A DNA stretch of 64,000 nucleotides from Balanoglossus misakiensis (lineage: Eukaryota > Animalia > Hemichordata). Shown here piece by piece: positions 1 through 64,000 of the stretch. The DNA is taken from positions 1,253,908 through 1,317,907 of the forward strand of contig CM082579.2 of NCBI GenBank assembly GCA_040954595.2. Direction: 5' to 3'. The translations under genes and the position numbers were made by a program. The notes beneath the pieces were generated by a model that had not been told where the DNA came from, made no database searches, and was given only the letters and a program-made list of their open reading frames with translations. The first letter of the stretch is position 1. Each line of letters starts with the position of its first letter.

Positions 1-1953
1 GAAAGCAAATGGATTTTCAGCTGATCAGTCATTTTGACTTGGGAAATCCAGAAATAGCTTTGACATGACAATCACTTCTCTTTCTTACCAACAGTAACAT
101 TGCTTAACTATTCTTCCAGTATTACCCCATCAGCATTATGTTTACATTTCCTTATGAATCACCGTATAGTGGTCTTTAGCTTTAAATATTTACACACTAA
201 CAGTTAAAGTCAGATTTGCAGAACGACTGCAACTTTTCAGCCATCTCATACATTCCCCTTACACACCCAAAACTCCTTCACATACACATTTGAAAACTAT
301 CACATGGAGATACCATATGTATATACCACAAAACCAAAGAGCTACTTGTATTTTTCTTACCTAACATATTTGAAGCCCAGTCCCCAAACATACCGTTCCC
401 TAAACCATATCATCTCTCTGTATAGTTTTCTATTTAAACTTTTTGTAATTGTTATAATTCTATTTTCTTGCATGGGAATTATATTTAGAAGGCAAACTTA
501 TGTCTTTTTTACTGTTTAAAAATAGACAAGTCTCTGACTTGTCATCCTGTCTTTTAGTTTTACTCCCATCTTGGTTGTGTATTAACTGTACAGCATTTGT
601 ACTCCCAGTGTGTGAAAAAAATAAATTTATATAAACCATCAACATATTGGAACATCCAATAATTGTGTCAGTGTCATTGTATTATGTGGAAAAATGAAAC
701 TGTGCCCTGGAAAATCTATTCTGCTTCAAAATGATTCTTTAAAATGTTAATGATTGTAAAAATGGCGTGAAAGTCAAACGGCTTAAATCTTTTGGTGTCT
801 ATTCGTCGTGTATGGCGTACTTCAATAACTTGATATAAACCCAAATTGAGGTTTGGCGAGAGGGCGCTATATACCCGACCATCAACTCATTTGGAGCTGA
901 TGACGTCACATGCGTACGTGCCCGATGCGCTCCCAACTGCTTCCCCCACCCTGGCACAAACATATGGTTCGGCCATCTTTCTCTGGAATCACCGATCTCT
1001 GCGCTGGGCTCGACCTTTGGCGGGGTTTCATTTCTACCTCGCACACGGCTCGGACGCACAATAGAAAATTCCTGATCAATAGAATAACTTTAGGGCCTAA
1101 ATTTAAATGTTTCGAGAAAACACGAAAGAAAACTGTTACTTACGTACGCAATTGGACTGCAAGCATGGAGAAATGGCACCCTTGATTTTCGTCAAGTCAC
1201 TTTCCATGACCGTTGGCTTATGTACATCATCTTAAAGGCTATACACATTTGGAAACTCCAGTCCATATCGTCATGACCTTGACTTTCACTTGGTTGTCGG
1301 AAATTGCTCCGGGAAATGAACAGGTCGTTGTCGCTCCTTCAGCCATGATGTTTGTACGTCAACGACTAAGTATCGAATGATGGAAGTGGCACCTCACTGA
1401 CCATCTGGACAAATGAACTGGCAGTCAATTATCCAATCAAAATGTGTCATGCACCAGGGGCATTTTGAGAAGCTTGTGATTGGCTGATGTGATTGAGAAG
1501 TTGTTTAGCATACCAAGATCACAGAATTTGCATACGTGACCATATAATTATTCATGTTTCCTTTCAGTGGGAAAGACATAACCACACAACCAGACAGAGT
1601 GGATTACTATGTTACATGAGTTTATTAATTAATTTGCATTCGCTGCGATCACAAAATAGAAGCGATAGTAGTACATGTAGGGATTGCCATCCAATAAGTT
1701 AAAAATCAAACAAAATCTGCGATTCAATTGTCATCATCTGCTCATCAACAGTCCCTGGATCTGCAAGGTAAACAATTCAGTTGAAGATCAAAAGATGTGA
1801 AATGGTTTCGAAAGAAACTGTCAACTTAAAAAGTCATCAGACATGAGGAACTGTTTGTGTAAATTCTTTTCTTGTGATCTATGATTTTTCCAAATACAAT
1901 GCCGATGACAAGAATTTACAGTTTAATTAATTAATTAATCAATGTAAGTACCT

Positions 1954-2431
1954 CTACGGTTCAACGGGGCATGGGTCTGTACACACTTCGGGGCCGAGTA
2001 CGGCACAGCAGTAGAATTCACTACAGGGACAGTTTTCAGGTTCTACTCCAGACCCGTTGAGGCCAATCAGTGCATCCAGCAACTGATTTTCTGCTTGTAC
2101 CGATGGATTCATGTCGATCGAGATTTTAACCGGAGTGTCCCTAAAATCACCTTGGTGAAAAAGAACACATACAAAGTGTGAGTTTACATGATTATCAAAA
2201 ACGAGTGTCGCTTGTTTGAAATGAGACTTCAAATATCAAGAGAGTCTGATTTGGAAAATGCGTGACTTAATTTGGGCATTGGTTACGCGACATCGATAGC
2301 GGACAGCTCGCCGGCTCTCCCCTGAGAGAATTGTTAAATCACAGAAACAAACAAATATATATGTACTCACCGAAACACTCGACTGTAGCTATGACGACAC
2401 AGAGAACACCCAGAATGAATACACCCCTCAT
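1954..2431 (-). CDS. Small secreted Cys-rich peptide precursor, paralog A (85 aa, most divergent copy)
   Basis: Coding exons 2431-2371 (MRGVFILGVLCVVIATVECF+G, donor GTGAGT) and 2150-1954 (acceptor tttcaccaag; GDFRDTPVKISIDMNPSVQAENQLLDALIGLNGSGVEPENCPCSEFYCCAVLGPEVCTDPCPVEP*), joined by a phase-1 intron. Non-coding exon 1 ends at 2681. A 3' UTR exon starts at 1760, with AATAAA at 1626-1621. Confidence 0.88.
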
Positions 2432-2436
2432 GATTA

Positions 2437-2560
2437 ACTGAAAATATATAATGATTCACAGAATTCACTGAAAATGTATAATTATTTCACAGAATTCAAT
2501 GAAAATATATAAGTATTTCACAGAATTGAATGAAAATATATAATTATTTCTCAGAATTCA
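2437..2560. repeat. ~31-bp tandem repeat x4 in intron 1 of paralog A
   Basis: Unit approximately aMtgaaaatRtataattatttcacagaattc, repeated four times and overlapping the exon-2 acceptor. Confidence 0.85.
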
Positions 2561-2760
2561 AAATTGTTAGTTGTTGAGATATTCCAGTTATTGCGAGCTA
2601 AACCGTTAAAACAATAGTCTACCAACAACTCGAAAACACAACAAAACAAATGTAATATAAAATAATAAATTGTATATTACCTCGTCGTGGTGGTACACAA
2701 CCTACAGCTTGTTTGGCGAGAGTTTTTCCAATACTGTTTTTATTAAAAGCCAGTCCGTTC

Positions 2761-2786
2761 TATTTATTAAACCGACTTGCGTGACA
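2761..2786 (-). promoter_or_regulatory. TGTCACGCA box + TATA-like element of paralog A
   Basis: tgcgtgaca at 2778-2786 (TGTCACGCA on the minus strand), then AATAAATA at 2768-2761. The same arrangement occurs in all seven paralogs. Confidence 0.7.
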
Positions 2787-4027
2787 GTTTTACCACTATG
2801 CGTGTTAAACCCCACTCGTGCCGTTAGCGTCGACAATTGCCTTCTCCTGCTCGTCGTATTTTCATATTTGATGTCTCCTCATTAGCTTTGCTGATATTTT
2901 TTATGGCGTCTTTAGTCTCGTAATTGGTTGGATGGTTTTATTTCACACATGTCGCGTGTGAGTCTCGTTAACTAAACCGACTGTAGCGTTTAGACACGAT
3001 ACGATCAGTTACTTCGTGTTTTCCTCTAAGATCATTTGTTTTCGTTTTCCACTCGTATTTACCAATTGGTCTATTGCAGGACCAACTGAGAGTGAAAACA
3101 CGCAACAGTTTATTTTATCATAACTTTGCGACACAAATCCCATTTACGTCTCCTTAAAATTCAAAAAGCTGGGATATTGATATAATTTATTCCCTATACG
3201 AGAGTTAGGTATGCGTGCAAGAAAAGTGCAGATTGCAATATTCACCATTCTCACTAAACACATATTGGCCTATACATTACGCAATATTTATTATAGATTG
3301 TGATCATTCAACTTGTAAAATAATAATACGCTTTTAATGCGATGCGACATTAATCACCGACATTTCATATTCCTGCATGCAATCATGATACGTTCAGGTG
3401 TAATTTTGAAAATACACGTATAAGGCCTTTTTGTAGACATTGAACACAATAATTTATAATTAACACTTTGCCACGTGCACGTCAAGTTATTATACTTTCC
3501 AACATTTATCGTCAGAAGAACAATATATTCAGTTGTCAGTATATTTGGGAACTTCAAAACTTACGAAAATCTCTCGCTATCGCTAGTGCGGTCGAATATT
3601 GCCGATCCGATTTCTTGTTATAGAGATTAATGATCTGACATGAAACGACAACATGGAATTTTCTCCATTTGGGAACCCTAATTTCCTAGAAATTGGGTAG
3701 AACGAACGCTGGTGATGCATAAACTCACAATCAAGATAATGATGTCAAGCCTTTGTTAGCGTGGTGGCTTTAGTCCGAAAAAATGCTGATTCTCAGCAAT
3801 GGCAATCGACTATGGCGTGAGTGTGCATACATTTACCAGTCCATAGTAAAATCAGTCGAGAAGAAAAAAAGTAATCGCGATGGAGTGATTTTATTGGCTC
3901 GCAAAACTTATCTGATTAAATTATACAACTATATACTTTTGCCATTAACGATTCAGCACCTCACTGTGTGCTCAAATTCCAGGTATTTCCATTACCAAGT
4001 TCGTTTTAACACGAAAAGACAAATCAT

Positions 4028-4053
4028 TGTCACGCATACAATACTGTTATAAA
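4028..4053 (+). promoter_or_regulatory. TGTCACGCA box + TATAAA of paralog B
   Basis: TGTCACGCA at 4028-4036 and TATAAA at 4048-4053; non-coding exon 1 ends at 4140 (cag|gtaaat). Confidence 0.75.
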
Positions 4054-4612
4054 TTGAAGTCGACACACAGCTCATCACTATCGGAGTTTTTCCTGAAAGA
4101 AGCAACTTTCTGCAGACGAAGTGATCCACTAGTAAAACAGGTAAATATACAAACTATACTTATTTACAAAGCCTTTCTAGCACCTATTCTCCAACACTTG
4201 GCTGACAATAGTGTTAACCGAGCATGTAGAAAGTCATACGCCGTACTGGTTGAGCATGCTGTCGGTATTGTCATGGATACTAACGAAAGTTGCTACCGCA
4301 AATGTGCATGCTTACTCTAGTATATCGGTTCATAAATCCGACAAACAGTACATTTTGTTGAATTTGCAGTAGTACTTTAAGGTCTGGATGGAATATCTTC
4401 GACTTTCAAATGAACAAAAAGTACATCATCATCGCCAATTCGTAAACTCTTAAGCACCTATATTCAATGTCACATTTTGCATTTTTTTGTACTATTCATG
4501 TTTATTTCAAACTCTTTCTACAGACCAGATTTTTAACTACAATCAGTCATGTCCAGATCTATACATTAAGTATTAAATATCCAAATTGTATTTTCTCAGC
4601 TCTACTGTCACC

Positions 4613-5235
4613 ATGAAGACCGCATGTGTTTTAGTTTTCTTCTGTGTGTGTGCCGCCATTGCGACAGTTCAATCTTTCGGTAAGTGTTACAGTTCGACAT
4701 GTTTACATTTTGATCACATTTTTCTGCGTTTTGTACGTTTGTGTACTTATCTTTGATTTGACAGACTTAGAACCGTTACTATGATCTACAGAACCTTGCT
4801 ACAAGTATCTATCCAACAAGAATGTATATATAGGCCAGGTGCATGGTTGGTGTCTATTGATGCAACTTTCCCAATCGGTTTTACGTGATATGAGATACAA
4901 TACTGCAGCCCCAGTATGCCTTACATCATTAATGATTATTTCCACAATTAATGAATTCAATTACACGCTGTCAGATTTGATTATAATGTCACAAGTGCCA
5001 TATATTATAGAATGTTTACAGAAAAATATATTCGACTATCGCAGGTGATTTCAGAGATACTCCTGTGAAGATACAAATCGATATGACGCCAAGCAAATCC
5101 TTCCAGGAAGACTTCGTCGACGCGTTGGTCTCCTACAACAACGAAGGTTCAATTGCAATCGATTGTAGCATCTGTCTCCACTGTGTTATGTACGGCTATG
5201 GTGCCTGCCCAGCAGGATGCCCTGGCTGTACTTAA
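4613..5235 (+). CDS. Small secreted Cys-rich peptide precursor, paralog B (85 aa)
   Basis: Exons 4613-4679 (MKTACVLVFFCVCAAIATVQSF+G|gtaagt) and 5045-5235 (GDFRDTPVKIQIDMTPSKSFQEDFVDALVSYNNEGSIAIDCSICLHCVMYGYGACPAGCPGCT*). The 3' UTR intron spans 5249-5661, with an AATAAA run from ~5824. Not in the ORF track. Confidence 0.92.
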
Positions 5236-5372
5236 TTCTTTCCAACAGGTATGTTAGGAGTCACAGCGATTTGTTCCATATTTTAAATGATTGTCAAAAC
5301 ATCATTTTGAACTAAGTGATTAGTTGATTGATTCTACAGCTATGAAGCTTTCTGACTGCATACATAGATGAG

Positions 5373-5581
<209 letters not shown>

Positions 5582-6580
5582 AGCAACAGTGTTTAGCAAA
5601 GAATACCTTTTAATGAAAACAGTTGTCAAGTGCTAACTTCGTCACACTCTTTCCTTTCTAGTTTTTCGTCGTCGGGGAATTGTGAAAGCCAAACTTTCGA
5701 CACCTTAAGCAACGGAACTGACAATATCTTCACGACTGAGTGTGTCTACATCATTAACATGTACCTAAAGTTTGGTTTCACTTGGAATGATCTTGTGGTG
5801 TTATGTATCTTATGGAAAGCAGAATAAATAAATAAATAAATAAAATAGAATACGGCTACCAGAGTTGTTTGTTCCTTGTGCTTAAAGTCACATGCACGCA
5901 TATACTTGTAATTTTTTGTCTATAAACGTTGTTTTGTGTCTTAATGTATCCGAAATGAGTATCATAGCCAACCAGGATAGACTACGAACCAAACAATCAG
6001 AGTTCATACTTTTGTGAAAGGTCAGAAAAGAAATGTTATTGCAAAGTTCATGTTGCCTTCCATTCGGTAGTTGCAACAGTAAATAAGCGTCTGCAAATAC
6101 AGTAGTCCCACTTTGTGAAAAGGCCGATGCTGCTATATATGGTGGTCTGATATTGAATGAGTTGAGTGTTTGTCAATTAACATTGCTGTTGCCATGGAGA
6201 GGTAAACCAATGTAATCAAATATAGAAATAATGACCATTAACGTTTGTTTATGGGCGAGGGCGAGGGGAAAGCCAACAATTCCTAGCCCATGAATTTTGG
6301 CTTTCTTCGAGCTTTCGGTAATGTTGAGTGATTGAAATAGCGTGGCAACACTCTTTTATGAGAAGGCAAAAGTTTTGATAACAAATGTCATCTGGCAATA
6401 GCGTGACGATATATGATATATGGCAGAACAGTAAAATCAGTGGCGAAGAAGGAATATTTCTCACGTAAATCAATTGGGATGATTGATTGGGCTTGCACAA
6501 AAAGTATTTTGAGTTCATTACACAATGATACTAAATGCGTGTCCCAACACTCGATTTGCTCAAGAAATGACAGGTAACCT

Positions 6581-6604
6581 TGTCACGCATATACGTTTAT
6601 ATAA
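6581..6604 (+). promoter_or_regulatory. TGTCACGCA box + TATATAA of paralog C
   Basis: TGTCACGCA at 6581-6589 and TATATAA at 6598-6604; exon 1 ends at 6693 (cag|gtaaat). Confidence 0.75.
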
Positions 6605-7063
6605 GTGTGTTGGATCATAACATTGACTATTTCATAAGGATATTCTTGAAAGGAGGAACTTTCTGCAGACAAAGTTGTCCTACTGACAAACAGGTAAATT
6701 TGTAAAATTTTATTTCTGAAAACTGGCAGATGGCACTGTATTTGTTTTAATCGCTCATAGAATATTTCAAAGTGGGACTACAAATAAGGAAGTGTGAAAC
6801 CGTGAAAACGTTTCTGTATATCCTGTGCTATAAGCTTGATTAGAAACTTAATTCTTCGACTACAAATATTTCTCAACTATATTGCAAGAAAACAATTCAG
6901 ATTTATTCAGGTGAAACTTCCAGTAGTGGTATCTTACTGAGAAAATCGACTTCACAGAGAATACATTGTGAACAAATAAATGAAAAGTGAATCTCAAACA
7001 TGAGTCAATCTCTTAACAGAGTTTTAAAGTTGACGTTGTTCCTTTCGCAGCTCTACTATCATC

Positions 7064-7456
7064 ATGAAGATCGCATGCGTTTTAATTGTTGTCTACTGTG
7101 TCGTCATGTCGACAGTGCAGTCTTTCGGTGAGTACAATTAATAAATTTCATGACGTTTTCTCCGTAAATTTACAACATGGATTGGCGGCGATTTTTATTT
7201 CACATTGGTGAAAATTGTGTTCTTTCATTCAAAATTTTGTACAGTTTCACATTTTTTATACACCGCAGGCGACTTCAGAGATACTCCCACTGAGATAACC
7301 ATCCATTTGACCCCGAAAGCGGATTTCCAGCGAGATTTCATCGATTATCTCATACTCGTGGGAAGTGGTGGTTTTCAGGCGAGCTGTTGCTGCAACAGAA
7401 TTTGTTGCCAGATTTTTGGATATGGGTATTGTCCCGCCGGTTGCCTTCAATGCTAA
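7064..7456 (+). CDS. Small secreted Cys-rich peptide precursor, paralog C (83 aa, 8-Cys core)
   Basis: Exons 7064-7127 (MKIACVLIVVYCVVMSTVQSF+G|gtgagt) and 7269-7456 (GDFRDTPTEITIHLTPKADFQRDFIDYLILVGSGGFQASCCCNRICCQIFGYGYCPAGCLQC*). The UTR intron spans 7471-7827, with AATAAA near 7992. Confidence 0.92.
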
Positions 7457-8935
7457 AAACTTCAAGTCAGGTACGATACTGAGGAACTGTTAATTGTTTT
7501 GTACTTTAATAATTATAATCGCTTCGTATCATATTATCTTCATGATTTTATATTAAAATATATTGGGTCAAGTGTCGTGCCGCATCACATCACATCACAC
7601 ATGTCATGTCATGTCATGTCACATCACTCACGTCACATCACATCATACATTCTGTTTGGCAAGTTCCGTCAAATAAGTTTCGCGAAGTAATTATGTAAAT
7701 CTGAAGTTTCGTAGATGTCGATGACACAGACGCACGCCAACACGGGCATGAGCTTCCGTGGTTTGCACTGGTGTTAATATAAATATCATAAATCAGTTCT
7801 CACTGCTACACACCCTTTCCCTTTCAGATGCTCATCACAGAAGAATCGTGGACTTTAAACCTACTGAAAACACCGTGGCCGGATCAGGGCTCGGACAAAG
7901 TGCTTAACATCTGTATACTTATTCAGTTTACCATCTAGCCTAAATGACTGGCTGTAGCAGCATGCATGTTATTAAGAGTAGCTCACTGATAAATAAAACG
8001 TTATGAAATAAGATTCGTTACAACACTACACGTGTCCAGACTCTTTGTTCTCTCGGGACCTTATCTGTGCTAAAGCACTTGTCCGCTGAGATAGTTCTGG
8101 TGAATTGCAATGTGGTGAATGGTGTGAGGGAATGGCAGGGAGGTGGGGACGGGAAGAAAGGGGGATCAGAATGAAATAAGTAAAGAAGAGATTGCGAAAT
8201 GAGGGAAGGAGATTTCCGAAAGAAAAAGGAATACAAAATGTACGAGGCTTGACAAACAGACTGTCATGTCAAACACTTTGCAAGACAGAGGAGGAAGGGG
8301 AGATGTTAAAATCCCCACACAGCTTCTTACAGAATAAAACTGAAATGTTCTGCGAAATTTCTAACATAGTCCACCTTTGCCACCGGCGACTTATAATAAA
8401 CCGGAAGAGAAGACGGCTTTCATATAGGTATATAACTGGAATGAAACTGAAAAATCGGGAGAAACATCGTGTTATTCAAAGATTGAGCTCCACGATAGAC
8501 GACAAAATGATTCATGTTAGTGGCTCTACACAAGCCACTTCAAGAACACGCTCCAAGTGGACACAAGGGAAATTGAAGGTTTCCTGATTTGATTTAAAAT
8601 AAGCGAACGTTCATTTTCAAGTTCACTTCAGATTGCCCATGGACTCGTAAGCATACTTCAACAATTTAATTAGGGGAAGTGGCATTATTATTTTTTGGTC
8701 AATTTGAATTTATTCCTCTGACTTCAAAGCAAATTACAACCAGGGTATAAATAATTTGTTGAAACTGGAACAGTCTTAAAAAGACAGTTTCTCGTAAACT
8801 GCCTTGGAGACATTTCATTAATCACGGACATGATTTTGAACTATTACTCAATTATAGAAACTTTTCTTTTTGACGTGTGTGGAACACCACTTGTGCTCAA
8901 CTTCCAAGTGTAAGGAAGTTCAGGCATCAGATAGT

Positions 8936-8960
8936 TGTCACGCATTCACATGTATTTAAA
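8936..8960 (+). promoter_or_regulatory. TGTCACGCA box + TATTTAAA of paralog D
   Basis: TGTCACGCA at 8936-8944 and TATTTAAA at 8953-8960; exon 1 probably ends at 9050 (aag|gtacat). Confidence 0.72.
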
Positions 8961-9479
8961 CTGGCGTTGACACAAGCTTCCCTACTCCTGCCGAGGTAAT
9001 TTCGAAATAAGGAACTTTCTGCAGACAAAGATTTCCTGCTGGTTAATAAGGTACATATGCAATCTATTCGACCGTCAATATTAGGCCCAATGCTTGCCGG
9101 GCTTAGAATTCCACCAGTCACGTGTAATGGATGAACGTGTAGTTGAATGCCATGTTGTTGTTATTCTTCACCATAAGGAAACAGCATAATTGTGCTCTAA
9201 TATAAGCTTGGTTCGCGGGGAAATGCATGTCAGTAGAAATATCCGCAAAAATGTTCTTGCCCTTTCTTCAAATGCATGTCAAATTTATTATCAGAAAATA
9301 GTCCCTTTCTAGAAACACTTTTATTTTCCCGGACGGCTAATTTGTTGATTTCGTCAATATCTTCATGAGTTTCCCTTGGATCATGTGAGATAGGATTACT
9401 GAAGTTTTGTCCATAACTCAAAAAATATATTCATCAGATATCGTTTTTAATTTTTTTTTTCAAAAGTTTTGCTGTCAGT

Positions 9480-11043
9480 ATGAAGACCGCGTGCGTTCTG
9501 ATTGTCATCTTCTGTGCCGTCATTTCGACAGTCCAATCTTTCGGTGAGTACAATCTTGAATCTGCTGTTACGACACGCTGGCCGTTCAGTTCCGAAACAG
9601 GGCAGTGAGCAAATATAGACTAATACTGAATGGCTCGCTTTGGTGAACCAACCAGCGCAGCACGCAACAAAGACGGTCAACAATAGGCACACCACACGTT
9701 ATTTCCTTGCTTATGGAAACTTTTAATTACTACAACTAAACATTGGTAAATATAAAAAGATTGTACACTGGGAAGAAAGCACACAAAAATAAATGACTAC
9801 CTTAAATGTGGCCAGGTGTGGGAAATGAAAGACTAAAGTCTTAGGTTCTGTAGCGCACGACGAACGCGACCAGCACCACGGCAGTCCCAACAGCGACGTT
9901 CAGTCCCAACAACGACGTTCAGTCCGAGTAGCGTTCTGGCACAATTCCCCGGTAGACGGCACGGCTTTCAGACGAATTCCCCCATGAGGTAGCACGACTT
10001 CTGGGCGCGGTTTCCAGACCAGTGCAGCATGAAATATGGCACAGCTTCCAAGTCGGCGAGGAACAGAACAGCTCACTCGGGCAAGTCCAAATTAGTAGCT
10101 ACGCCGCAACACAACGTGCGGGCTTTTTATATGGGGAAAATAATGAATGCACCACACCTGGTCACGCAAATATTCAAATTACGAAAGTAAGCGAAAACAC
10201 ACCTGGTCACAAAACAACAGCAAACTTCTCCTACGTAACACTGCTAACTGCATTACTTTGTATTTTGAGTACGTACTGCCACACATTTGCTGCTTGATGT
10301 TGTCTGTTGTATTTTTTGAGTATATAGCCTACTATGTATGCATGTACTATTTATTTCATTTTCGTATAAAACTGAACAATTCCGCCAAAATTCACCTAGA
10401 CTCATTGAAAATTAACTTTTAGTTTGGAGGCGTGAAAACTCCCATAAGTGTTCTTTTATAAACTTATTAGTCATATAGAAACTTTTTTTTATATATTTGG
10501 TGCCTGTGGATAACACAATACCAAGAACATTACGCCCAGGGTATATTCTCAACGACCAATGGTGTAAACGTTGTATAATCGTCACTGTCTACAACTTGCT
10601 GGTTGATTATTGGTATACATAAACAATCTGATTTGTACTCCCCGCGCCATGTGCTACAGAGCGAATATAGACACTACAATAAGAATTAGTTTATTTGACG
10701 CCCTATTATGTCTACATGACCCATTATGCGTGGAAGACAACACGGTTCGTAGACTTTTATGGGTATAGCAAATTATAAATACTATATGTAAATTTTCATC
10801 TGGCTTGTGTGGGAAGTAACAGTTTTCACAGACTACGTTTCTGTAACTCTAACAGGCGATTTCAAAGATACTCCCGTGGAGATTGTCATCCATATGGAGC
10901 CAAAGAAATCCTTCCAGGAAGGTTTCGTCGATATGTTGATCTCCCAAGGCACCGGTGGGTCAATTGCATCCAACTGTTGCGACCCTTACTGGTGTGTTAT
11001 TTACGGCTACGGTTACTGTCCAGCAGGATGTCCTACCTGTTAA
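9480..11043 (+). CDS. Small secreted Cys-rich peptide precursor, paralog D (83 aa)
   Basis: Exons 9480-9543 (MKTACVLIVIFCAVISTVQSF+G|gtgagt) and 10856-11043 (GDFKDTPVEIVIHMEPKKSFQEGFVDMLISQGTGGSIASNCCDPYWCVIYGYGYCPAGCPTC*). The UTR intron spans 11057-11282, with AATAAA at 11422. Confidence 0.92.
9566..10240. mobile_element. Solo LTR (Gypsy-type, 675 bp) in intron 2 of paralog D
   Basis: Starts TGTTACG and ends CGTAACA (TG...CA with a 7-bp terminal inverted repeat). It is flanked by the 4-bp direct repeat CTGC (9562-9565, 10241-10244) and is absent from the paralogous introns. Confidence 0.8.
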
Positions 11044-12449
11044 TTCTTTCCGTCAGGTATGTCAGAAGTGTCAGCGATTTGTTCCATATTTTGAATGCCA
11101 GAACATCTGAACTAAGTGATAAGTTGATATGACTCTACAGCTCTGAATTTGTCAGACTGCATGCACAGACGAGAGTTATAAAGCTGGACAGGGTCATTTT
11201 TTTATGAAATTGTCTACAAGCTGTTAAACCACTTAATGTCAAATCGTCCAATTCTCACTATGTCACACCTTTTCCTTTCTAGTGTTTCATCGTTGGAGGA
11301 TTGTAGAAGAGAACCCCCATATGCTGGAGAACAATGCAAAGTGCTTCATAACGCTACACACCACAACACCATCTCCAAGACAGGATTGACTAGCGATTTC
11401 TTGTGTGCTTTAATTTGTGGAAATAAAGAAAATTATAAGTAGAAATAAACAGCCCAAGACTCTTTGATGTGTGACATAGAATTTATAGTTAATAATAGGC
11501 CAAAATGCTTTAAATAGAACAGAGCATTTGCCGATGTGCTTTATAATTAATTCAGAACGGTACTGATCTGTAGCGTTACGTGTTTTTACATCTCATCCTT
11601 CGGACGTTTTCCTCTTTGGTGCTTCTGTGGTGAATTAACCACATCCAAAAGTTGGAGAGTAAATCTCCACCTCCACATAACCGGCCGATCGCAAACCTTT
11701 TGTTGACAGAAATTTGATCGTTGGTTCTCATCTCTCTCTCTCCCATCTCCTCTCTTCTCTCGTCTAAAATGTCACCACATATAATATACATCAGTCAAAT
11801 ATTAAGTCATAAAAAGAAGACGCCATCTTAATCTAGGAAATGTATATGTGCTGTGCAGGTAATGTACATCATAGTGCATATGTAGATATATAGTATGCAA
11901 TTCTGTGTAAGCATAGGAAATGAAAAAAGACTCCGCGAATCTTACTAAAAGTTCCACCCTTGCCACGGCAACGCACACTATAGTAAACCTAAGGCGAAGA
12001 GGGCTTTCAAAATGAAAACAAAACACGTGAAACATGATGGTATTAAATGATTGAGCCACTACTAGAACACACTTCAAGTGGAAACAGAGAAAATTGAAGG
12101 TTTCGTGTTCTGAGTTAAAATAAGCGAAAATTCACTTCACTTTAGATTGCCGATAGACTCGTCAGCATGATACTTCAACAATTTCATTAGGGGAGGTGGA
12201 ATTATTTTTTCGGTCTATTTGCATTTATTCCTCTGATTTCAAAGCAAATTACAACCAATAGCGTGAGGATATAAATAATTCGTCGAAATGTTGGATCAGT
12301 CGTAAAATGACATTTTCTCGTAAACTGCCTTTATCAATCACGAAAATGATCTTGGCCATATTGCTCAATTATAGAATCTTTTGTTTTTGACGTGTGTGGA
12401 CCACCACTTCTGCTCAACTTCCAAGAAGGAAGTTCATGCATCAGATATT

Positions 12450-12474
12450 TGTCACGCATACACATGTATTTAAA
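12450..12474 (+). promoter_or_regulatory. TGTCACGCA box + TATTTAAA of paralog E
   Basis: TGTCACGCA at 12450-12458 and TATTTAAA at 12467-12474; exon 1 ends at 12558. Confidence 0.72.
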
Positions 12475-12701
12475 CTGGCGTTGACACAAGACTCTTCACT
12501 CCTACCAAGGTAATTCCGAAAGAAGGAACTTTCTGTCGACAAAGATCTCCTGTAACAGGTAAATATGCAATCTATACTACCTTCGATTTATGCCTAATGC
12601 AGGCTGCACGTGTTGACGCGATTGATGTCTAGCACCTGTTAGTCTTCGTCGTGACTAAAATCCTCATTGTTTTTTTTTTTCTCCAAAGTTTTCCTATCAC
12701 T

Positions 12702-13052
12702 ATGAAGACCGCCTGCATTCTGATTGTCATCTTTTGTGTCGCCGTTTCGATGGTGCAATCTTTCGGTGAGTACAATTCGTACCTAATTGTCACATTCTGA
12801 AGGTTTTATTTTTTGTGACATCTAAAATGGAAGTGCTTGCATTTGTTATTCCTTTGCCTTGTACAGCTCCGCTAAACGTTATTATATTTCGCCGCTGGCT
12901 TGGAGCCAAGCAAATCCTTCCAGGAAGAATTCGTCGACGCGTTGGTCTCCTACAACAACGAAGGTTCAATTGCAGTCAATTGTTTAAGCTGTATCCAGTG
13001 TATTATGCACGGCTATGGTGCCTGCCCAGCAGGATGCCCTGGCTGTACTTAA
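12702..13052 (+). pseudogene. Paralog E of the Cys-rich peptide family: probable pseudogene (exon-3 acceptor deleted)
   Basis: The signal exon 12702-12765 is intact (MKTACILIVIFCVAVSMVQSF+G). Relative to paralog F, ~120 nt containing the acceptor and GDFKDTPVEIVIH are replaced by 24 nt of filler (12877-12900). The remainder reads EPSKSFQEEFVDALVSYNNEGSIAVNCLSCIQCIMHGYGACPAGCPGCT* to 13052. The best remaining acceptor (12866) gives a shifted frame. Confidence 0.8.
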
Positions 13053-13499
13053 TTCTTTCCAACAGGTATGTTAGGAGTGACAGCGATTTGTTCCATATTT
13101 TAAATGATTGTCAAAACATCATTCTGAACTAAGTGATTAGTTGATTGATTCTACAGCTCTGAATCTGTCTGACCGCATGCATGCACAGACGAGCGTTATA
13201 AAGTTGGACAGGATCAACACTTATGATATTGTTCGCCATTTGTTAAATTAAAGTCAAATCTTCATATTTTCACTATGTAACAATCTTTCCTTTCTAGTGT
13301 TTCATCGATGGAAGATTCTAGAAGATAAAACACATATTCGGTAGAACAATGCAAAGTGCTTCATAACGCTACACACCACAACACCATCTCCAAGAAAGGA
13401 TTGACTAGCGATTTCTTGTGTTCTGTAATTTGTGGAAATAAAGAAAATTATAAGCATAAACGTTTGAATTTGTTGTGCCATATCACAAACGGATCGTTC

Positions 13500-14420
13500 C
13501 ACTGTATCTAGCCATCTACCAATATCACGTTCATCCCTAGTATTTCGACTGTCCCTGGGGAAACGCTCAAGTATCTACCCCGACCCCTGCCTGACCTCCT
13601 CCCTGTGTCCAATGAGACACAGTCCCTGTGGATGAGACGAGCGGAGTTTTCAGGGCTTCTTCAGAAATGACAGTAGAATTAACGTCTGTTCTCTCGAACC
13701 CGGAATCAACTTTACTGTTGAAAACAACCTCCCTATCCTGCGATAAATTAGCATCCCCCATATACACGTGGCCATGATACGATTTTACCGGACATAATGC
13801 TTTCTAAGAAAACTGCACTAATCTAAAATCGTACAGCCGACACAGAGATCTGACGGGACGATGAATGCCTAAATGAACACTGTATAGCTTTCAAATCACT
13901 GCAAAAGAAGGCGATACAAAAGCCCAGAGTGAATGTGTTGCGCTGACCTGCGTGAACAGATCCCGTAAGGAGTACGGTGCCCAGAGCGCTCAACACGCCA
14001 CGAACTTCTGTGACCTCTCTTCTGCACACAACAATAAAAGGTTCTCAACAAACAACATTCATCGACCAAACCTGACCGCTGCGTCGATCCAGACCTTGGC
14101 GAATATTCGGAAGGGGCTCCTGAACCAAAGTTGCCCCTAACAAACCCACCGCTGCCACCAATTGTAACGGAAATCCAAACGGTCGCGGTCCACCTCTGAA
14201 AACTGGTAGCGCGCAGGCGCACACAGCCTCTCACAAACACTGAAACAGCGCCATCTCTACACACGGCCGGAACTCGACGGAAAGCATCGGCTCACACCGA
14301 ACTGCTACGGTAAACACGTCATAGAACTCGCGATCGGTGACCCGGGGCTGGCTATCCGGTAGGGATAAAACAGGACTAATTAATCAGGCTCGAACCTAAA
14401 AAAACATGCTGAGAAGTGCT
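13500..14420. mobile_element. Unclassified GC/CpG-rich insertion, probably a transposon fragment
   Basis: Abrupt compositional change relative to the flanks; not shared with the duplicated peptide-gene units. No intact ORF or terminal repeats recognised. Confidence 0.3.
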
Positions 14421-14446
14421 GGACATGATAAAACTGTCTACAAATT

Positions 14447-14448
<2 letters not shown>

Positions 14449-14485
<37 letters not shown>
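14449..14485. repeat. (GA)n microsatellite
   Basis: Direct reading of the sequence. Confidence 0.9.
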
Positions 14486-14486
<1 letters not shown>

Positions 14487-14949
14487 GTTTGGTAAATGGT
14501 TTTCTGATATCTTCATATCATAATATCAAATGTCATAAATGTCGACCATTATGCATCGTATTTCCCCACACCTCTTTCTGGAGTGCCCAACTGAAGAAGC
14601 AGAGGAGTCAGGGTAACCGAGACTAGCAGACATACAAGTCAGTCCAATAACGGTCACCATGGCTACACCACCACGCAAGCAAAGCCACACAGAAACACCA
14701 TGTAGAATAATAAATCACATGGAATAGCAATTCCATAACAATATAAAATCAGTAACGAAACCATGTTGACAATCAGAAATTAAATTAGCAACATGTTTAC
14801 ATAAAAAAAAAATCTCTAAAACCTTACTGAATAATGGTAACGATGACGCTTGCCTGTTTTTTCTTACATCCTGCTTATCACCCTTTTAAAAATCGACACG
14901 ACGTTGTTACATTTAAAAAATGTTGGAAAAATTCCATTGAATTCCAACC

Positions 14950-15870
14950 ATTGAATCTATCCAAAACTGTATCACTGACATCAAGCAGTGGATGACTAAC
15001 AAATTCCAACTGAATGGCAGTTAAACTGAAGCAATAATAATATCGAGACTATCTGCAAAATCATCCTTAGGCCTTGCCGTCATTTTGGAGATTCCGTGAT
15101 ATTGTTTGCCTCCAGTGTTAAAGACCTAGGAGTCATAATTGACTCCAACTTGAACATGTCTGATCATGTGCAGAATACTTGCAAAGCTGCCTACGCCCAA
15201 CTTAGACAGATAAGCTCTATCCGTCATTTCCTCACTCAACAAGCCACTCAAACTCTCGTCATTTCACTTGTTCTGTCACGCTTAGAATGTTGGAACTGTC
15301 TCCTTTCTAGTTGTTCTAAACAGCTTATAGACAAGTTGCAAAGAGTGCAAAATGCACAGTACATACCAAATCGACAACTCCGCTATTCATCAGATTCTAG
15401 ACTTGTCATCATTCCTAGAGTTTCCACAAAGACATATCCCCTCAGATTCGCACTACCAACTTTCACTAACGCATTGACATGTTCAAAACTTACATGTACT
15501 TGGGCGTCGTATCCACCTTCTTTCCAGCAACTGCTTGGGTAAAAAAAACACGGGGACGCATACACGTGGACTTCCAAATTTAATACGGAAAAAAAAACAA
15601 TTACACGGACGCCTGCGCACTGACCGCACACGCCAGGTCAAATAAAGCGCAATGCGACAAACGAAACTATGAATATGCATTGAATTCATGACAAAGATCG
15701 TTCGCATATATTGGTCCCAAATTATGGAATAATCTTGTGTGTGTGCCTTGATTCCTGTGCCTGTGTTTCAACAAGTCCTCCTCTTCAGTTTACTTGTTGC
15801 CATCCCGTGCCTTGAGCTCTGATTATCAGAGATTATAGGCGCATTATAAATTGTCTTTCTTATTATTATT
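14950..15870 (+). mobile_element. Degenerate 5'-truncated non-LTR retrotransposon (L2/CR1-group LINE), 3' end
   Basis: C-terminal RT-region motifs IQNCITDIKQWM...QLN and VKDLGVIIDSNLNMSDHV...LRQISSIRHFL...LVLSRL...KLQRVQNA, with stops and deletions. The 3' tail gccttgagc...ggcgcattataaat...(TTA)n ends at 15870. Confidence 0.85.
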
Positions 15871-16181
15871 GCCGATGCACTCATCAGCACGATACTTCAA
15901 CAATTTAATTAGGGGAGGTGGAATTATTTTTTCGGTCAATTTGCATTGATTCCTCTGACTTCAAAGCAAACTACAACCAATAGCGTGAGGGTATAAATAA
16001 TTTGTCGAAATATTGGATCAGTCGTAAAAAGTCGGCTTCTCGTAAACTGCCTTGGAATAATTTTATTAATCACGAAAATGATTTTGGCCCCATTACTCCA
16101 TTTTAGAATCGTTTGTTTTTGACGTGTCTTTAACACGAATTCGGCTCAGCTTCCAAGAAGGAAGTTCATGCATCAGATATT

Positions 16182-16206
16182 TGTCACGCATACACATGTA
16201 TTTAAA
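16182..16206 (+). promoter_or_regulatory. TGTCACGCA box + TATTTAAA of paralog F
   Basis: TGTCACGCA at 16182-16190 and TATTTAAA at 16199-16206; exon 1 ends at 16290. Confidence 0.72.
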
Positions 16207-16743
16207 CTGGCGTTGACACAAGCCTCTTCACTCCCACCAAGGTAATCCCGAAAGAAGGAACTTTCTGACGACAAAGATCTCCTGTAACAGGTAAATATGC
16301 AATCTATACTACCTTCGATTTATGCCTAATGCAGGCTGCACGTGTTGACGCGATTGATGTCTAGCACCTGTTAGTCTTCGTCGTGACTAAAATCAGAGTC
16401 CACAGCATAATTGTGGTTCTCCACTTAGAAATATAAGTTTAGTTCTCGGGAAAATGTATGTCAGTAGAAGTATCCGCAAAATGTTTCCTTTTGTGTCAGG
16501 CTTACCTCAGTCTTTCAAATGCCTGGCCGGCAAGCTCCTTATCAGAAAATGCTCAATTCGTACAATCATATTTATTTGCTCAGACGTCTAATTTGTATTG
16601 AGGAATTACGTCAATAACATTTTGTGTTTAACTTAAATTATGCGCTGTGAGATGGGATTACTGCAGTTGGTTTTGTCTAACTCTAAAAATATATTCATCA
16701 GATATCCTCATTGTTTTTTTTTCTCCAAAGTTTTGCTATCACT

Positions 16744-17188
16744 ATGAAGACCGCCTGCGTTCTGATTGTCATCTTTTGTGCCGTCGTTTCGATGGTGCAA
16801 TCTTTTGGTGAGTACAATTCGTACCTAATTGTCACATTCTGAATTGTTTTATTTTTTGTGACATCTAAAATGGAAGTGCTAGCATTTGTTATTCCTTTGC
16901 CTTATACAGCTCCGCTAAAATTAAGTTTAACTCATTGAAAATCAAGTTTAAGTTTCTAAGCGTGCAAATTTCACAAACTTTGTTTCTGTAACTCTAACAG
17001 GCGATTTCAAAGATACTCCCGTGGAGATTGTCATCCATATGGAGCCAAGCAAATCCTTCCAGGAAGACTTCGTCAATTTGTTGATCCAAGGCAGTGGTGC
17101 TTCAACTGCAACCGATTGCAGCAGCTGTACATGGTGTCAGATTTACGGCTATGGTTACTGCGCACCAGGATGCCCTGGCTGTAGTTAA
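16744..17188 (+). CDS. Small secreted Cys-rich peptide precursor, paralog F (83 aa)
   Basis: Exons 16744-16807 (MKTACVLIVIFCAVVSMVQSF+G|gtgagt) and 17001-17188 (GDFKDTPVEIVIHMEPSKSFQEDFVNLLIQGSGASTATDCSSCTWCQIYGYGYCAPGCPGCS*). The UTR intron spans 17202-17406, with AATAAA near 17539. Not in the ORF track. Confidence 0.92.
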
Positions 17189-18272
17189 TTCTTTCCGACA
17201 GGTATGTTTTTAAATGATTGTCAAAACATCATTCTGAACTAAGTGATTAGTGACTAATTCTACAGCTCTGAATCTGTCTGACCGCATGCATGCACAGACG
17301 AGCGTTATAAAGTTGGACAGGATCAACACTTATGATATTGTCTGCCATTTGTTAAATTAAAGTCAAATCTTCATATTTTCACTATGTAACAATCTTTCCT
17401 TTCTAGTGTTTCATCGATGGAGGATTCTAGAAGATAAAACACATATTCGGTAGAACAATGCTTCATAACGCTACACACCACAACACCATCTCCAAGAAAG
17501 GATTGACTAGCGATTTCTTGTGTGCTTTAATTTGTGGAAATAAAGATTATGCATAAGTAGAATTAACCGGCTGAGACTTGTTTCAATGTGACATATAACT
17601 TAATAGTCTAAGAGGATGTTGATAATACACAGAGGGGTGCACGGTATTGGGTACAACACCATACTTTAAGGAATCGAACAAAGATCTGCAAATGATAGAC
17701 GGATGGCGTGCCTCCCAAATGTGTTGGGGCTGGAGGCCTTCGCGAGTCTCGTCGGGGTGTCGGTTGATGTGAAGAGACAGTACTCATACAATCCACTTAC
17801 GCAATCAGTCACCTGTTTGATTTCGTGAGTTAATTCGTTAAAAAGACACCGAACATTTTTTGATGTAGTATGACGCAATTAGCATTTTATTTCTTAACCT
17901 TACAGAGATGATATCAACATTTCATCAAGGGATATGAATTCCAGGTGCATCAAACTCTAGGGGTCGTCATTGACTAAGGTCCTGAGAAATCGCCAATATC
18001 TGAAATATAAATTGCATAAGTGTCAATTAGTCTGGGCATTCGTATATTCTTAACTTTGCGATTTCTGGAAAAGCCTGAAATATTTATAATATTTTCTGGT
18101 TTGATGATAATCAGTCAATTTGGCCATAAAATTTTAGTGTATCGTCTATATGTATCGTTATACTGGATCGGGAGTGACCGTGCTTTCATAGGCGATTAGA
18201 AGCGGGACGAGAGCTTTGACGCTTCCGAAGTTTCACATGCAAATCTTGAAAGAAACAGAAATCCCCAATACC

Positions 18273-18657
18273 TTAATGACAGATGCAGCCTGCTGGACAC
18301 ACACCGTAACCATGAACGATACAAGACGCTTTGTTGCAGCAATCAACTGCAGCTGTGCCGGCACTTCCCACCGTCATCAACTCTTCAACGAAGTCCTTCT
18401 GGAAGTTTACGTCAGGGGTCATATGAATGACAATTTGAACAGGCAGATCTCGGAAGTTTTCTGTTGAGACAGGAAATAATTATGCAGCCAGTTTTATTTG
18501 ACCTGTTTCGATTCGATTCTCTCTCTCTCTCTCTCTCAATACAAAGGTTAAAAACTCGTCTTTTATAAAAGAATACAAAAGTTTCGCGAAACTTACCAAA
18601 AGATTCCACCGTTGCCACGGCGACGCACAATAATCCAAAGACAAAAACAGATTTCAT
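18273..18657 (-). CDS. Small secreted Cys-rich peptide precursor, paralog G (82 aa)
   Basis: Exons 18657-18597 (MKSVFVFGLLCVAVATVESF+G nt|gtaagt) and 18460-18273 (ENFRDLPVQIVIHMTPDVNFQKDFVEELMTVGSAGTAAVDCCNKASCIVHGYGVCPAGCICH*). Exon 1 ends at 18792. A probable UTR exon starts at 18074, with AATAAA at 17891-17886. Confidence 0.9.
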
Positions 18658-18885
18658 ATTGGTATCTGGAATAAAAATGAACAAATCAGATGAAACATCT
18701 AGGAGAAGCTTGACCAATAAACGACGAAACTAGCGGGCAGCAACACCATGGAAATTCATGGAAAGGATTAAAAAAAATAAGCCATATTTACCGATGTGAC
18801 GGGCAACTTGAAGTTCACAACTTTGTCAGCTGAAAGTTGTTTGCTTAACGATCGAATTGGATGCAGTCTTCTTCGCCCTCCGACT

Positions 18886-18909
18886 TTTTATACCCAGGTG
18901 TGCGTGACA
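18886..18909 (-). promoter_or_regulatory. TGTCACGCA box + TATAAAA of paralog G
   Basis: tgcgtgaca at 18901-18909 and ttttata at 18886-18892 (TATAAAA on the minus strand). Confidence 0.75.
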
Positions 18910-20998
18910 GCCACATAATTCCCGTGCAGCGATCGCGTTGTGCGTGATTTTATTGCACGTCGATCATCCTTGTCAGTTGTTACTTAATAGAAATGTCTAG
19001 CACATTATCTAACATCATCATGTGTCACGTTTTATGTTCAATTTATCAAAATCCATGATCATTTTCGTTCCACACAAATGTTTTTGACGTACGCTCTTAC
19101 TCCCTACACGCCAAGTCATTTCAGTTGATCAAAGAACCGGTGACTTACGATGCATGCCATGAAAGAAACTTTTAAATTTATTGACAACAGGACCGTTAAA
19201 TGCAACTCACAGAAGCTGCAATTGCTTTCATTACTTTCAATAGTGCTCCTCTTAAACTTAGATTGGTTCATTTAAGTAACTTTAATAGGGGGTATACACA
19301 TTCGAACTATCAATCCCTGAAACCCCTGATTATGACTGCACAGTTGCCTCACCCGTTTAAGATAGATGACTCAGTATACGACTACTCACAAGTTATAATA
19401 TTGTCATTTTCCTGCTTAATGTATACATATGTGTATGTACATATGATTTAAATGGTTTAATCATTAGGTGTTATAAAACTACCGTGTAAAACGCAAGGTC
19501 ACACATAAATATAGACATCGTGTTATATCACTGATGTATGCTGCATCAGACATATAGGTGGCGTCATATTGGTCTGATAACACAGCAAGATATTTTGTGA
19601 CAGCTGATTGCGCACAGAACACAGGTGACATGCCTTTGGCTGAAGTCGTGGTATTTCCTCTGATTCTCGTCTTTGTCACGGTGGTTGCCATAGCTATGAC
19701 CCTACCAGAATTTCACAGAAGATGGAAATTATTAAGTGACCGGCAATTTTTCTGATTACCGGTTGACGGTAAGTCATCAATGTGCTTTGCGACTTTTTTT
19801 GTTGTTCTGCCAAAATAAAAACATGTGACTGAGCATTGCTTGGTTTTTGAAGACAATGCAACCTGTTGTAAGTTTTCACGAAATCATAAAACCCACGTAT
19901 ATGAAAAGGTCATCTTGGAGGCTGAACCAATCGAACAGCCGGAACCGAAGATATACCAGTATCCAAACGATGTAGAATGGTTTGGCGCCCCCAAACATGT
20001 TCAATCCTATTTCAGTCGACGTCGGTTCCTTGAATAGGCGTCGATGAAGACACAACTTCAATGACATAGAATCAACTGTTCAAACCTCCGCTGATACAAA
20101 GCCGAAGAGCGTATTGGGATTTTTTTTTGTTTGAAAAGTGGACTTGCTTTGAACGATGTTCTCTTCATTGTTGTCAGCGCATTTACATTGTGATGGCAGC
20201 TGTAACCTCGTCAGTATTAAAGCGACATACAACATGTCCTGTCATCATAATTTAAACCAGTTGTCTAAGATAATGTACCCATTACTAACTTGAAGCTTAG
20301 TGCCTAACACCTCAAAACGATAACGTTAATATTGGATGTGTAAATTTAATTAATGTGGGTTCAAAGTGGTCCGACAAACCACATTAGAACCAAAAATTGG
20401 GCGGCGTATCTAAAAGGCCGCTATGTCTATTGGCATAGACGTGGTCTTAAGGAATTTCTTTTATACTGTATCTTCTGTTGACATTGACACTGCGGTTCTA
20501 TGGCTTCTTCACGTTCAAGGTGAAGAAATCTGGAAGGTCGAGGTTGCCCCTCCTTATGCGACGTCATAAACTACCTTGTTCATATTATTGGTGTTATTCA
20601 ATCGGTAGGGTGTTTCTCATGAACAATTTCGTCATCGTTTGATAATAAAATGACGAGTTTTATCACATAAATTTAGGCGGTGATAGATACCGGATATTTA
20701 TACGGATATCGAATTTAAAGTGTGGCCTGTTGTGCCCTGTGACTGGACTGTGAATCGTAGCGGAGCTCCGTGTGTGTGTGTGTGTGTGTGTCATTGAGGT
20801 GGGAGGGTCCCTATCAACGCATCATATGAATATTCATAAGGTTACTATGTGCGTGTTGAACTATTCAGTTTGTGAGTTACCTTTGTAACAGCTGTCAAAC
20901 GATCGACGTGCTGTGCGTAGTACGGCTCCACCCTGTACTCATCATAACCTAATTAATAACAAATTGATGTAAATTTCATATCGAGCTTATTTTTAACC

Positions 20999-63789: not shown

Positions 63790-64000
63790 GTATGAACATT
63801 CACGTTTCATCTGCTATTCTGAATCTACAAAGTACATGTACAACCATATGTGTAGCTATTGTTATACACGCACAAACATGAATTCCATATTGGCATCAAC
63901 TTGCCTACAATTAACCTGGACGTGTCTTTGATTAAAAGCATTGGGACCTTGACAAAGTATGAATAAAAACATCACAATATACATGAATTCAATTTATCAC

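What the first reader, a model, noticed from the sequence alone, without database searches (positions are those of the whole stretch)
1600..18910. Seven-gene tandem array of an unrecognised secreted Cys-rich peptide family
Seen in sequence: seven paralogs (A-, B+, C+, D+, E+, F+, G-) share one architecture: non-coding exon 1, a signal-peptide exon, a phase-1 intron, a pro+core exon and a UTR-only exon 4. The cores are A NCPCSEFYCCAVLGPEVCTDPCPVEP, B DCSICLHCVMYGYGACPAGCPGCT, C SCCCNRICCQIFGYGYCPAGCLQC, D NCCDPYWCVIYGYGYCPAGCPTC, E NCLSCIQCIMHGYGACPAGCPGCT, F DCSSCTWCQIYGYGYCAPGCPGCS and G DCCNKASCIVHGYGVCPAGCICH. Established: signal + conserved pro-region + hypervariable Cys core in a tandem array is how conotoxin-like venom peptides, defensins and peptide pheromones are organised. 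Inference: this is a lineage-specific toxin, defence or signalling peptide system. The cores are neutral to acidic and aromatic/hydrophobic, so they are unlike cationic antimicrobial peptides. I cannot match them to any family I know.
Basis: partly seen in the sequence, partly recalled or inferred. Interest (0 to 1): 0.93.

Follow-up and report, generated by a model that had tools for sequence, protein, structure and literature searches.

The report
Acorn worm's unknown cysteine-peptide gene array
A likely acorn-worm genome carries six intact genes and one broken gene for small, predicted-secreted, cysteine-rich peptides that share one promoter motif and have no relative in the databases searched; they are likely defence peptides of the animal's mucus, but their expression and activity are untested.

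Summary
The array is real. Six copies (A, B, C, D, F, G) give intact 82-85 aa precursors. E has lost its exon-3 acceptor and 13 codons, and two stop-containing signal-exon relics lie in the array. A neighbouring gene places the host among enteropneust hemichordates. The 9-mer TGTCACGCA occurs exactly seven times in 64 kb, once per gene just upstream of the TATA-like box (chance 0.45), which confirms the seven units independently. Signal and N-terminal segment are under purifying selection. Variation sits in the linker and first half of the core, where one cysteine shifts position and an extra pair comes and goes. E is an F-like gene carrying a B-like core exon. No convertase site precedes the core, so the 'pro-region' may stay attached. 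Positive selection is suggestive, not established. No homologue turned up in Pfam, the PDB, the Atlas or 1.84 billion protein representatives; other hemichordate genomes could not be searched as DNA, and expression was not testable. Best reading: a co-regulated, lineage-restricted family of mucus defence peptides (45%); deterrent toxin or chemical signal are the rivals.

The parts
1610..2786 (-). Gene A (most divergent, intact, 85 aa): promoter 9-mer 2778-2786; exon 1 ends 2681; signal exon 2437-2371 (ATG 2431); exon 3 2150-1952 (stop 1956-1954); exon 4 from 1760, AATAAA at 1626
4028..5850 (+). Gene B (intact, 85 aa): 9-mer 4028-4036; exon 1 ends 4140; signal exon 4600-4679 (ATG 4613); exon 3 5045-5248 (stop 5233-5235); exon 4 from 5662
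6581..8010 (+). Gene C (intact, 83 aa, 8-Cys core): 9-mer 6581-6589; exon 1 ends 6693; signal exon 7051-7127 (ATG 7064); exon 3 7269-7470; exon 4 from 7828, AATAAA at 7992
8367..8431 (-). Relic of a G-like signal exon, with in-frame stops and no exon 3 found; weak match (E 0.012)
   Evidence: lies in the block duplicated between the upstream regions of D and E
8936..11450 (+). Gene D (intact, 83 aa): 9-mer 8936-8944; exon 1 ends 9050; signal exon 9467-9543 (ATG 9480); 1312-nt intron 2; exon 3 10856-11056; exon 4 from 11283
11941..12024 (-). Relic of a G-like signal exon (87.5% to G over 48 nt; E 4e-6), with in-frame stop and no exon 3 found
12450..13455 (+). Gene E (broken mosaic): 9-mer 12450-12458; exon 1 ends 12558; signal exon 12689-12765 (ATG 12702); exon-3 acceptor and first 39 nt missing, 24 nt of unrelated sequence at 12877-12900; remnant of exon 3 about 12901-13065 is B-like (94% over 278 nt) while the flanks are F-like; exon 4 from 13298
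16182..17560 (+). Gene F (intact, 83 aa): 9-mer 16182-16190; exon 1 ends 16290; signal exon 16731-16807 (ATG 16744); exon 3 17001-17201; exon 4 from 17407
17870..18909 (-). Gene G (intact, 82 aa): 9-mer 18901-18909; exon 1 ends 18792; signal exon 18665-18597 (ATG 18657); exon 3 18460-18272 (stop 18275-18273); exon 4 from 17999, AATAAA at 17891

Best explanation
This is a tandem family of six intact genes, one broken gene and two relics sharing one promoter 9-mer, likely in an acorn worm, whose predicted-secreted products likely serve as host-defence peptides in epidermal or pharyngeal mucus. Shown: gene structures, the shared promoter element, purifying selection on the signal and N-terminal segment, concentration of change in the linker and first half of the core, a core-exon swap in E, and absence of a basic cleavage site. 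Inferred: (1) one transcription factor co-expresses the set in one secretory cell type; (2) the signal is cut before the invariant Phe, giving an acidic product of 63-66 aa; (3) the conserved 29-residue strand-plus-amphipathic-helix segment is a working module, kept as an anchoring or assembly domain in the manner of big defensins or removed by a non-convertase protease at the Asn/Asp that precedes the first Cys in 6 of 7 copies; (4) the head holds three disulfides (four in C), with a fixed YGYGxCPAGC-type scaffold and a variable first loop that sets the target on microbes or small parasites; (5) duplication, conversion and loss renew the repertoire.
For: Seven of seven units carry TGTCACGCA at the same place, the only 7 matches in 64 kb, against 0.45 expected, although synonymous sites between A and the others are near saturation (pS 0.90-1.02 in the N-terminal segment). 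Pooled pN/pS over 15 non-independent pairs: signal 0.39, N-terminal segment 0.43, linker 1.01, core 0.60. Cysteine numbers are even in 7 of 7 and change in pairs. B versus E: 11 coding differences, about all non-synonymous, 9 of them in 33 nt of the first half of the core. Birth, death and mosaic copies. Host class from the HHIP-like neighbour: best hits Ptychodera 63%, Glandiceps 54%, Saccoglossus 51%, all others listed at most 37%. Hemichordate epidermis is highly secretory (PMC13554239, passage). Big defensins show that a conserved N-terminal domain, flexible linker and Cys-rich head can act at any net charge in salt water, and are reported absent from Ambulacraria (PMC7203481, passages).
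Against: No expression, tissue, induction or activity data. Cores are not cationic (-4 to +1), unlike most membrane-active antimicrobial peptides; the N-terminal segment is acidic, whereas that of big defensins is hydrophobic. Positive selection is not established: B versus E gives P = 0.051, the dense window was chosen after looking, and a conservative parsimony count on B, D, E, F gives omega of about 1.0-1.2 in the core, P 0.37-0.48. The closest analogue by organisation, mussel MgCRP-I, showed no antimicrobial, antifungal, insecticidal or cytotoxic activity when synthesised (PMC4558851 abstract). The promoter 9-mer resembles Pax or AhR sites, not a recognised immune-response element.
Confidence: 0.45

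Rival explanations
1. Predator-deterrent neuroactive peptides released in mucus, acting on ion channels or receptors of worms, crustaceans or fish, convergent with conotoxins.
For: D and G begin CC-X4-C-X7-C, the spacing of the alpha4/7 conotoxins (framework as in PMC4052327, passages). Neutral, aromatic heads suit receptor pockets. Variable first loop and exon swapping. Enteropneusts are eaten by bloodworms and by some cone snails (passages).
Against: That spacing holds in only 2 of 7 copies (3 with the 8-Cys copy C); B, E and F shift the second Cys and A lacks it, and the Cys co-occurrence pattern ties the second Cys to the last one, which is not the alpha-conotoxin pairing. No Pfam or PDB conotoxin match. 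No basic processing site. Acorn worms are deposit or suspension feeders with no venom apparatus (own knowledge).
Confidence: 0.2
2. Species- or individual-specific chemical signals (spawning or settlement cues, gamete recognition), with the variable loop as identity code.
For: No homologue in searches that include three annotated hemichordate proteomes; lack of cationic charge; tight co-regulation by one element.
Against: One genome keeps at least six different heads with different Cys frameworks, which suits a cocktail more than one ligand; no amidation Gly or dibasic neuropeptide sites.
Confidence: 0.15
3. Structural or redox or metal-binding components of mucus or burrow lining, cross-linked through Tyr and Cys.
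For: The conserved half of the head is Tyr/Gly/Cys/Pro-rich; CxxCxxC appears in B, E, F; acidic mature chain (pI 4.1-4.9).
Against: Single short head with no repeats; Cys gained and lost in pairs, as expected of internal disulfides; dense amino-acid change in one loop.
Confidence: 0.12
4. A decaying array that is no longer expressed.
For: One broken copy, two relics and LINE-like insertions nearby; no direct proof of transcription.
Against: Six open frames with intact splice signals, stops placed 1-14 nt before the last junction, pN/pS near 0.4 in signal and N-terminal segment, and a promoter 9-mer kept in 7 of 7.
Confidence: 0.04

Closest known systems
MgCRP-I of Mytilus galloprovincialis (PMC4558851; abstract and sections 16-17 read)
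   Same: Lineage-restricted multigene family of short secreted six-Cys peptides; conserved front, variable head; four exons with non-coding exon 1 and a phase-1 intron after the signal exon; pseudogenes; function unknown.
   Different: MgCRP-I has a dibasic site, an invariant C-C-CC-C-C array, basic mature peptides, and an intron between pro-region and head. Here there is no basic site, the Cys framework varies, heads are neutral to acidic, N-terminal segment and head share one exon, and the last intron is in the 3' UTR.
Big defensins (PMC7203481; passages read)
   Same: Conserved N-terminal module, flexible variable linker, six-Cys head; charge can be anionic; tandem duplication and fast diversification in marine animals.
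   Different: No sequence match. Their N-terminal domain is hydrophobic beta-alpha-alpha-beta and their head is beta-defensin-like; here the module is acidic and shorter and the Cys spacing is unlike beta-defensins. Reported absent from hemichordates.
alpha4/7 and other A-superfamily conotoxins (PMC4052327; passages read)
   Same: CC-X4-C-X7-C spacing in D and G; signal, middle segment and small disulfide head.
   Different: Two extra Cys; spacing not kept in B, E, F or A; inferred pairing differs; no basic cleavage site; no sequence match; host is not venomous.
Guanylin / heat-stable enterotoxin and hepcidin precursors (recalled, no call)
   Same: Small C-terminal Cys cluster on an 80-100 aa secreted precursor; C-X3-C-X2-C end as in STa.
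   Different: No Pfam or PDB match at E up to 10; different Cys number and spacing; no furin site. A resemblance from memory only.

Membership tests
MgCRP-I | Dibasic convertase site ending the pro-region | tested here: not met
   0 of 6 intact copies have K or R in the 15 residues before the core
MgCRP-I | Invariant C(X3-6)C(X1-7)CC(X3-4)C(X3-5)C array | tested here: not met
   Spacings; only A has the order C-C-CC-C-C, with loops of 1, 4, 7 and 3
MgCRP-I | Basic mature peptide | tested here: not met
   Core charge -4 to +1
Big defensins | Sequence similarity to the family profile | tested here: not met
   No such Pfam family among the matches of 7 exon-3 products at E up to 10; no such PDB chain
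Big defensins | Two modules joined by a flexible variable linker | tested here: inconclusive
   Conservation pattern fits; the model has a helix at 18-32 and a low-confidence linker but pTM 0.25
Big defensins | Bacteria-triggered nanonet assembly and antimicrobial activity | not testable with these tools
   Needs peptide and assay
alpha-conotoxins | CC-Xm-C-Xn-C four-Cys framework | tested here: not met
   Six or eight Cys in 7 of 7; the 4/7 spacing is embedded in D and G (and C) only
alpha-conotoxins | A-superfamily precursor similarity | tested here: not met
   No Pfam match for exon-3 products; the signal exons were not scanned
alpha-conotoxins | Nicotinic receptor antagonism | not testable with these tools
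   Needs electrophysiology
Secreted Cys-rich peptide arrays (general kind) | N-terminal signal peptide | tested here: inconclusive
   Basic or neutral start, hydrophobic run and V-x-S/C before the invariant Phe in 7 of 7, read by eye; SignalP was not available
Secreted Cys-rich peptide arrays (general kind) | Tandem duplication with birth, death and conversion | tested here: met
Secreted Cys-rich peptide arrays (general kind) | Positive selection on the mature head | tested here: inconclusive
   B vs E P = 0.051; conservative four-copy count omega about 1

The most novel reading that the evidence does not exclude
Acorn worms run a co-regulated, recombining peptide library: one promoter element drives an array in which a conserved leader, read by a non-convertase protease or a modifying enzyme (possibly brominating the Tyr/Trp-rich head, given the halogen chemistry of these animals) or kept as an assembly domain, carries exchangeable disulfide heads whose cysteine wiring itself is rewired between paralogs. 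These would be the first peptide toxins or defence peptides from the phylum, on a disulfide scaffold not in the PDB.
Probability: 0.15. Interest if true: 0.8.

Novelty: new variant of a known kind. Interest (0 to 1): 0.58.

Why it matters
Hemichordates are the sister group of echinoderms and a key reference for chordate origins. Ten literature searches here turned up no described defence peptide or peptide toxin from them, and big defensins are reported absent. This array gives a concrete, small, synthesisable candidate family. It offers a natural series of disulfide frameworks on one scaffold (a mobile Cys, an optional extra pair), a clear case of a core exon swapped between paralogs, and a 9-bp promoter tag that could find the rest of the cell type's gene battery genome-wide. 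Its weight is limited by the common architecture and the unknown function.

Tried and rejected
No whole genome is held for the window, so copies elsewhere in the genome could not be counted. No RNA holder was listed for 6600-13500, so no reads were laid; this is no evidence on expression. Pfam: 1 weak chance match (EMG1, E 0.043) among 7 exon-3 products. Word-indexed protein search: 0 of 19 candidates at E up to 1 (27-114 aa) and 0 of 2362 at E up to 10 (73-2000 aa, N-terminal segment plus linker). HMMER on 1.84 billion representatives: 2 hits, both long repeat proteins (InlB B-repeat; LRR with tandem repeats) whose scores are summed over 7 and 12 weak stretches, rejected. Atlas: best feature score 0.77, and no usable named hit. 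PDB sequences: 1 match at E 0.33. AlphaFold model low in confidence (pLDDT 64, pTM 0.25); Foldseek and VIA-align found nothing, which means little for such a model. Homodimer job: no answer. Metagenome scan: 0 of 244 pattern matches confirmed. Rfam: 0 matches in 1-21000. No further copy of exon 3 in the window outside 1500-19200 (best tblastn E 0.009). Earlier scan findings: nothing relevant. A literal paper search for the 9-mer returned 30 listed papers whose titles were unrelated. Strict XRE (TNGCGTG) fits only A, 1 of 7; Pax consensus fits as a half site only. A knottin reading of A was rejected because its first loop is one residue.
Full report
HOST. The window is animal DNA (about 32-42% GC in 2-kb bins). 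An HHIP-like frame at 62457-63365 has its three best hits in enteropneust hemichordates: Ptychodera flava 63%, Glandiceps talaboti 54%, Saccoglossus kowalevskii 51%; the other 117 listed hits are at most 37%. The host is therefore inferred to be an acorn worm other than these three, nearest Ptychodera. The next recognisable gene to the right of the array is GRXCR-like (glutaredoxin and GRXCR C-terminal Pfam matches). No whole genome was available.

OBSERVATION. All seven cores are present as stated. A, B, C, D, F and G have a signal exon, a phase-1 GT-AG intron of 136-1312 nt, and an open exon 3, giving 82-85 aa. Each stop lies 1-14 nt before a canonical donor, which by the 50-55 nt rule (own knowledge) avoids nonsense-mediated decay; an acceptor and AATAAA follow. 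A and G are true paralogs: a protein profile of B-F scores them 50.3 and 91.6 bits, with 0 of 2000 shuffles reaching either; for the core of A alone the signal is weak (5 of 2000). E is broken: 120 nt of the F-type sequence, including the exon-3 acceptor and 13 codons, are replaced by 24 unrelated nt. The seven AGs before position 12925 are out of frame; three in-frame AGs lie further inside the remnant and could at most give a product lacking most of the N-terminal segment (untested). Two minus-strand G-like signal-exon relics with stops sit upstream of D and E, in the same head-to-head position as A to B. The array has held at least nine units.

PROMOTER. Aligning the exon-1 regions showed one invariant block. 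TGTCACGCA occurs 7 times in 64,000 bases, once per gene, on the gene's strand, 106-118 nt before the exon-1 donor and just upstream of a TATA-like box; shuffles give 0.45 on average and 0 of 100 reach 7. For D, E and F recent duplication explains the sharing. For A and G it does not, since their synonymous sites against the other copies are largely saturated. The motif holds GTCACGC, part of the paired-domain consensus (PMC2612750, passages), and on the other strand GCGTG, the XRE core; the strict TNGCGTG (PMC4229089, passages) fits only A. The factor is not identified.

ANATOMY. After the predicted signal comes a 29-residue acidic segment with seven invariant positions in six copies, a strand-like and then an amphipathic-helix pattern (helix 18-32 in a low-confidence model), a 10-residue Gly/Ser linker, and a 23-26 residue head. 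No Lys or Arg lies in the 15 residues before the head in any of the 6 intact copies; Asn or Asp precedes the first Cys in 6 of 7. Four Cys columns are invariant. A fifth Cys sits at one column in C, D, G and two columns later in B, E, F; it and the last Cys are both missing in A. An extra pair appears only in A and C. All seven heads have an even Cys number. From this I infer that the mobile Cys pairs with the last Cys and the extra two pair with each other. Head charges are -4 to +1, and the mature chains have pI 4.1-4.9.

EVOLUTION. Pooled pN/pS over 15 non-independent pairs of the six intact copies: signal 0.39, N-terminal segment 0.43, linker 1.01, core 0.60 (0.83 without shared Cys). E is a mosaic: 60-nt tiles are F-like from about 12161 to 12880 and after 13121, but B-like from 12941 to 13120 (94% to B over 278 nt), which reads as conversion or unequal crossover within exon 3. 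B and E differ at 11 nt in 48 codons, about 10.75 non-synonymous (Fisher P = 0.051); 9 of these fall in 33 nt of the first half of the head, against 2 of 111 other coding nt and 7 of 133 non-coding nt (window chosen after looking). Against this, a parsimony count on B, D, E, F that favours synonymous paths gives omega of about 1.0-1.2 for the core with P 0.37-0.48, although changes are dense in its first half (26, against 10 in the second half). Purifying selection on the front is shown; positive selection on the head is only suggested.

HOMOLOGUES. None was found in Pfam, the word-indexed protein collection, the Atlas, PDB sequences, PDB folds (weak model), metagenomes or by HMMER on 1.84 billion representatives, whose 2 hits are repeat artefacts. 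A hit of 47.5 bits had E 1.5e-7 in that search and A scores 50.3 bits on a profile built without it, so an annotated relative as distant as A should have shown. The collection holds annotated proteins of three hemichordates, but small genes are often not annotated and their DNA could not be searched, so the family's range is open.

LITERATURE. Ten full-text searches listed no paper describing such peptides, or any antimicrobial peptide or peptide toxin, from a hemichordate; the library lacks most subscription journals. Read: PMC4558851 (abstract, sections 16 and 17); passages only of PMC7203481, PMC4052327, PMC13554239, PMC4729200, PMC4280546, PMC2612750, PMC4229089 and PMC10210618 (83, which has no occurrence of 'antimicrobial' or 'cysteine'). 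No supplements were opened; marker tables of hemichordate single-cell and immune studies might list unnamed relatives.

MECHANISM. I commit to mucus host-defence peptides (0.45). The reasons are a co-regulated cocktail with birth, death and exon swapping, an animal with a highly secretory epidermis (PMC13554239) living in microbe-rich sediment (own knowledge), and the big-defensin precedent for a kept N-terminal module plus linker plus Cys head at any charge (PMC7203481). The charge-masking role of typical pro-pieces does not apply, since the heads are not cationic; hence the inference that the segment has its own job. Rivals: deterrent toxin 0.2, chemical signal 0.15, structural or metal-binding 0.12, dead array 0.04. 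MgCRP-I warns that such families can test inactive in standard assays.

VERDICT. Real, apparently undescribed family; known kind of organisation with distinct twists (no convertase site, mobile cysteine wiring, invariant promoter tag, core-exon swap), in a phylum where my searches found no such family. It is not a member of MgCRP-I, big defensins or alpha-conotoxins, since defining features were tested and not met. Interest 0.58.

Noticed in passing
window 14900-15400 (+): Decayed fragment whose translation looks like the C-terminal part of a CR1/L2-type LINE reverse transcriptase (label recalled, not confirmed by Pfam); 13480-14400 is GC-richer and may be another mobile-element piece. Together they separate E from F.
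   Followed up: partly
window 19633-19755 and 19819-20037 (+): A 40-codon ORF with one hydrophobic stretch, and a 72-codon open frame just downstream, between gene G and the GRXCR-like gene; no Pfam match; not related to the family.
   Followed up: partly
window 20999-32793 (+): GRXCR1/2-like gene: glutaredoxin exon at about 24059-24370 and C-terminal Cys domain at 32599-32790; a useful synteny anchor for finding the array in other acorn worms.
   Followed up: partly
window 37678-45030 (-): Gene with a long charged region and a C-terminal LIM domain (Pfam LIM).
   Followed up: partly
window 58900-61270 (-): Multi-exon gene that resembles CKAP2-like proteins (recalled; no Pfam match for the one piece scanned).
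   Followed up: no
window 62424-64000 (+): HHIP-like gene; its closest relatives are three enteropneust proteins of 622-635 aa.
   Followed up: yes
window 5369-5580 and 2455-2561: A (GATT)n microsatellite of about 210 nt in intron 3 of B, at a place where D, E and F have one or two units; and three 31-nt tandem copies in intron 1 of A.
   Followed up: no
window 4524 and 4599: B has a second candidate acceptor about 75 nt upstream of the one used in the model, which could give an alternative 5' UTR (seen in the sequence).
   Followed up: no
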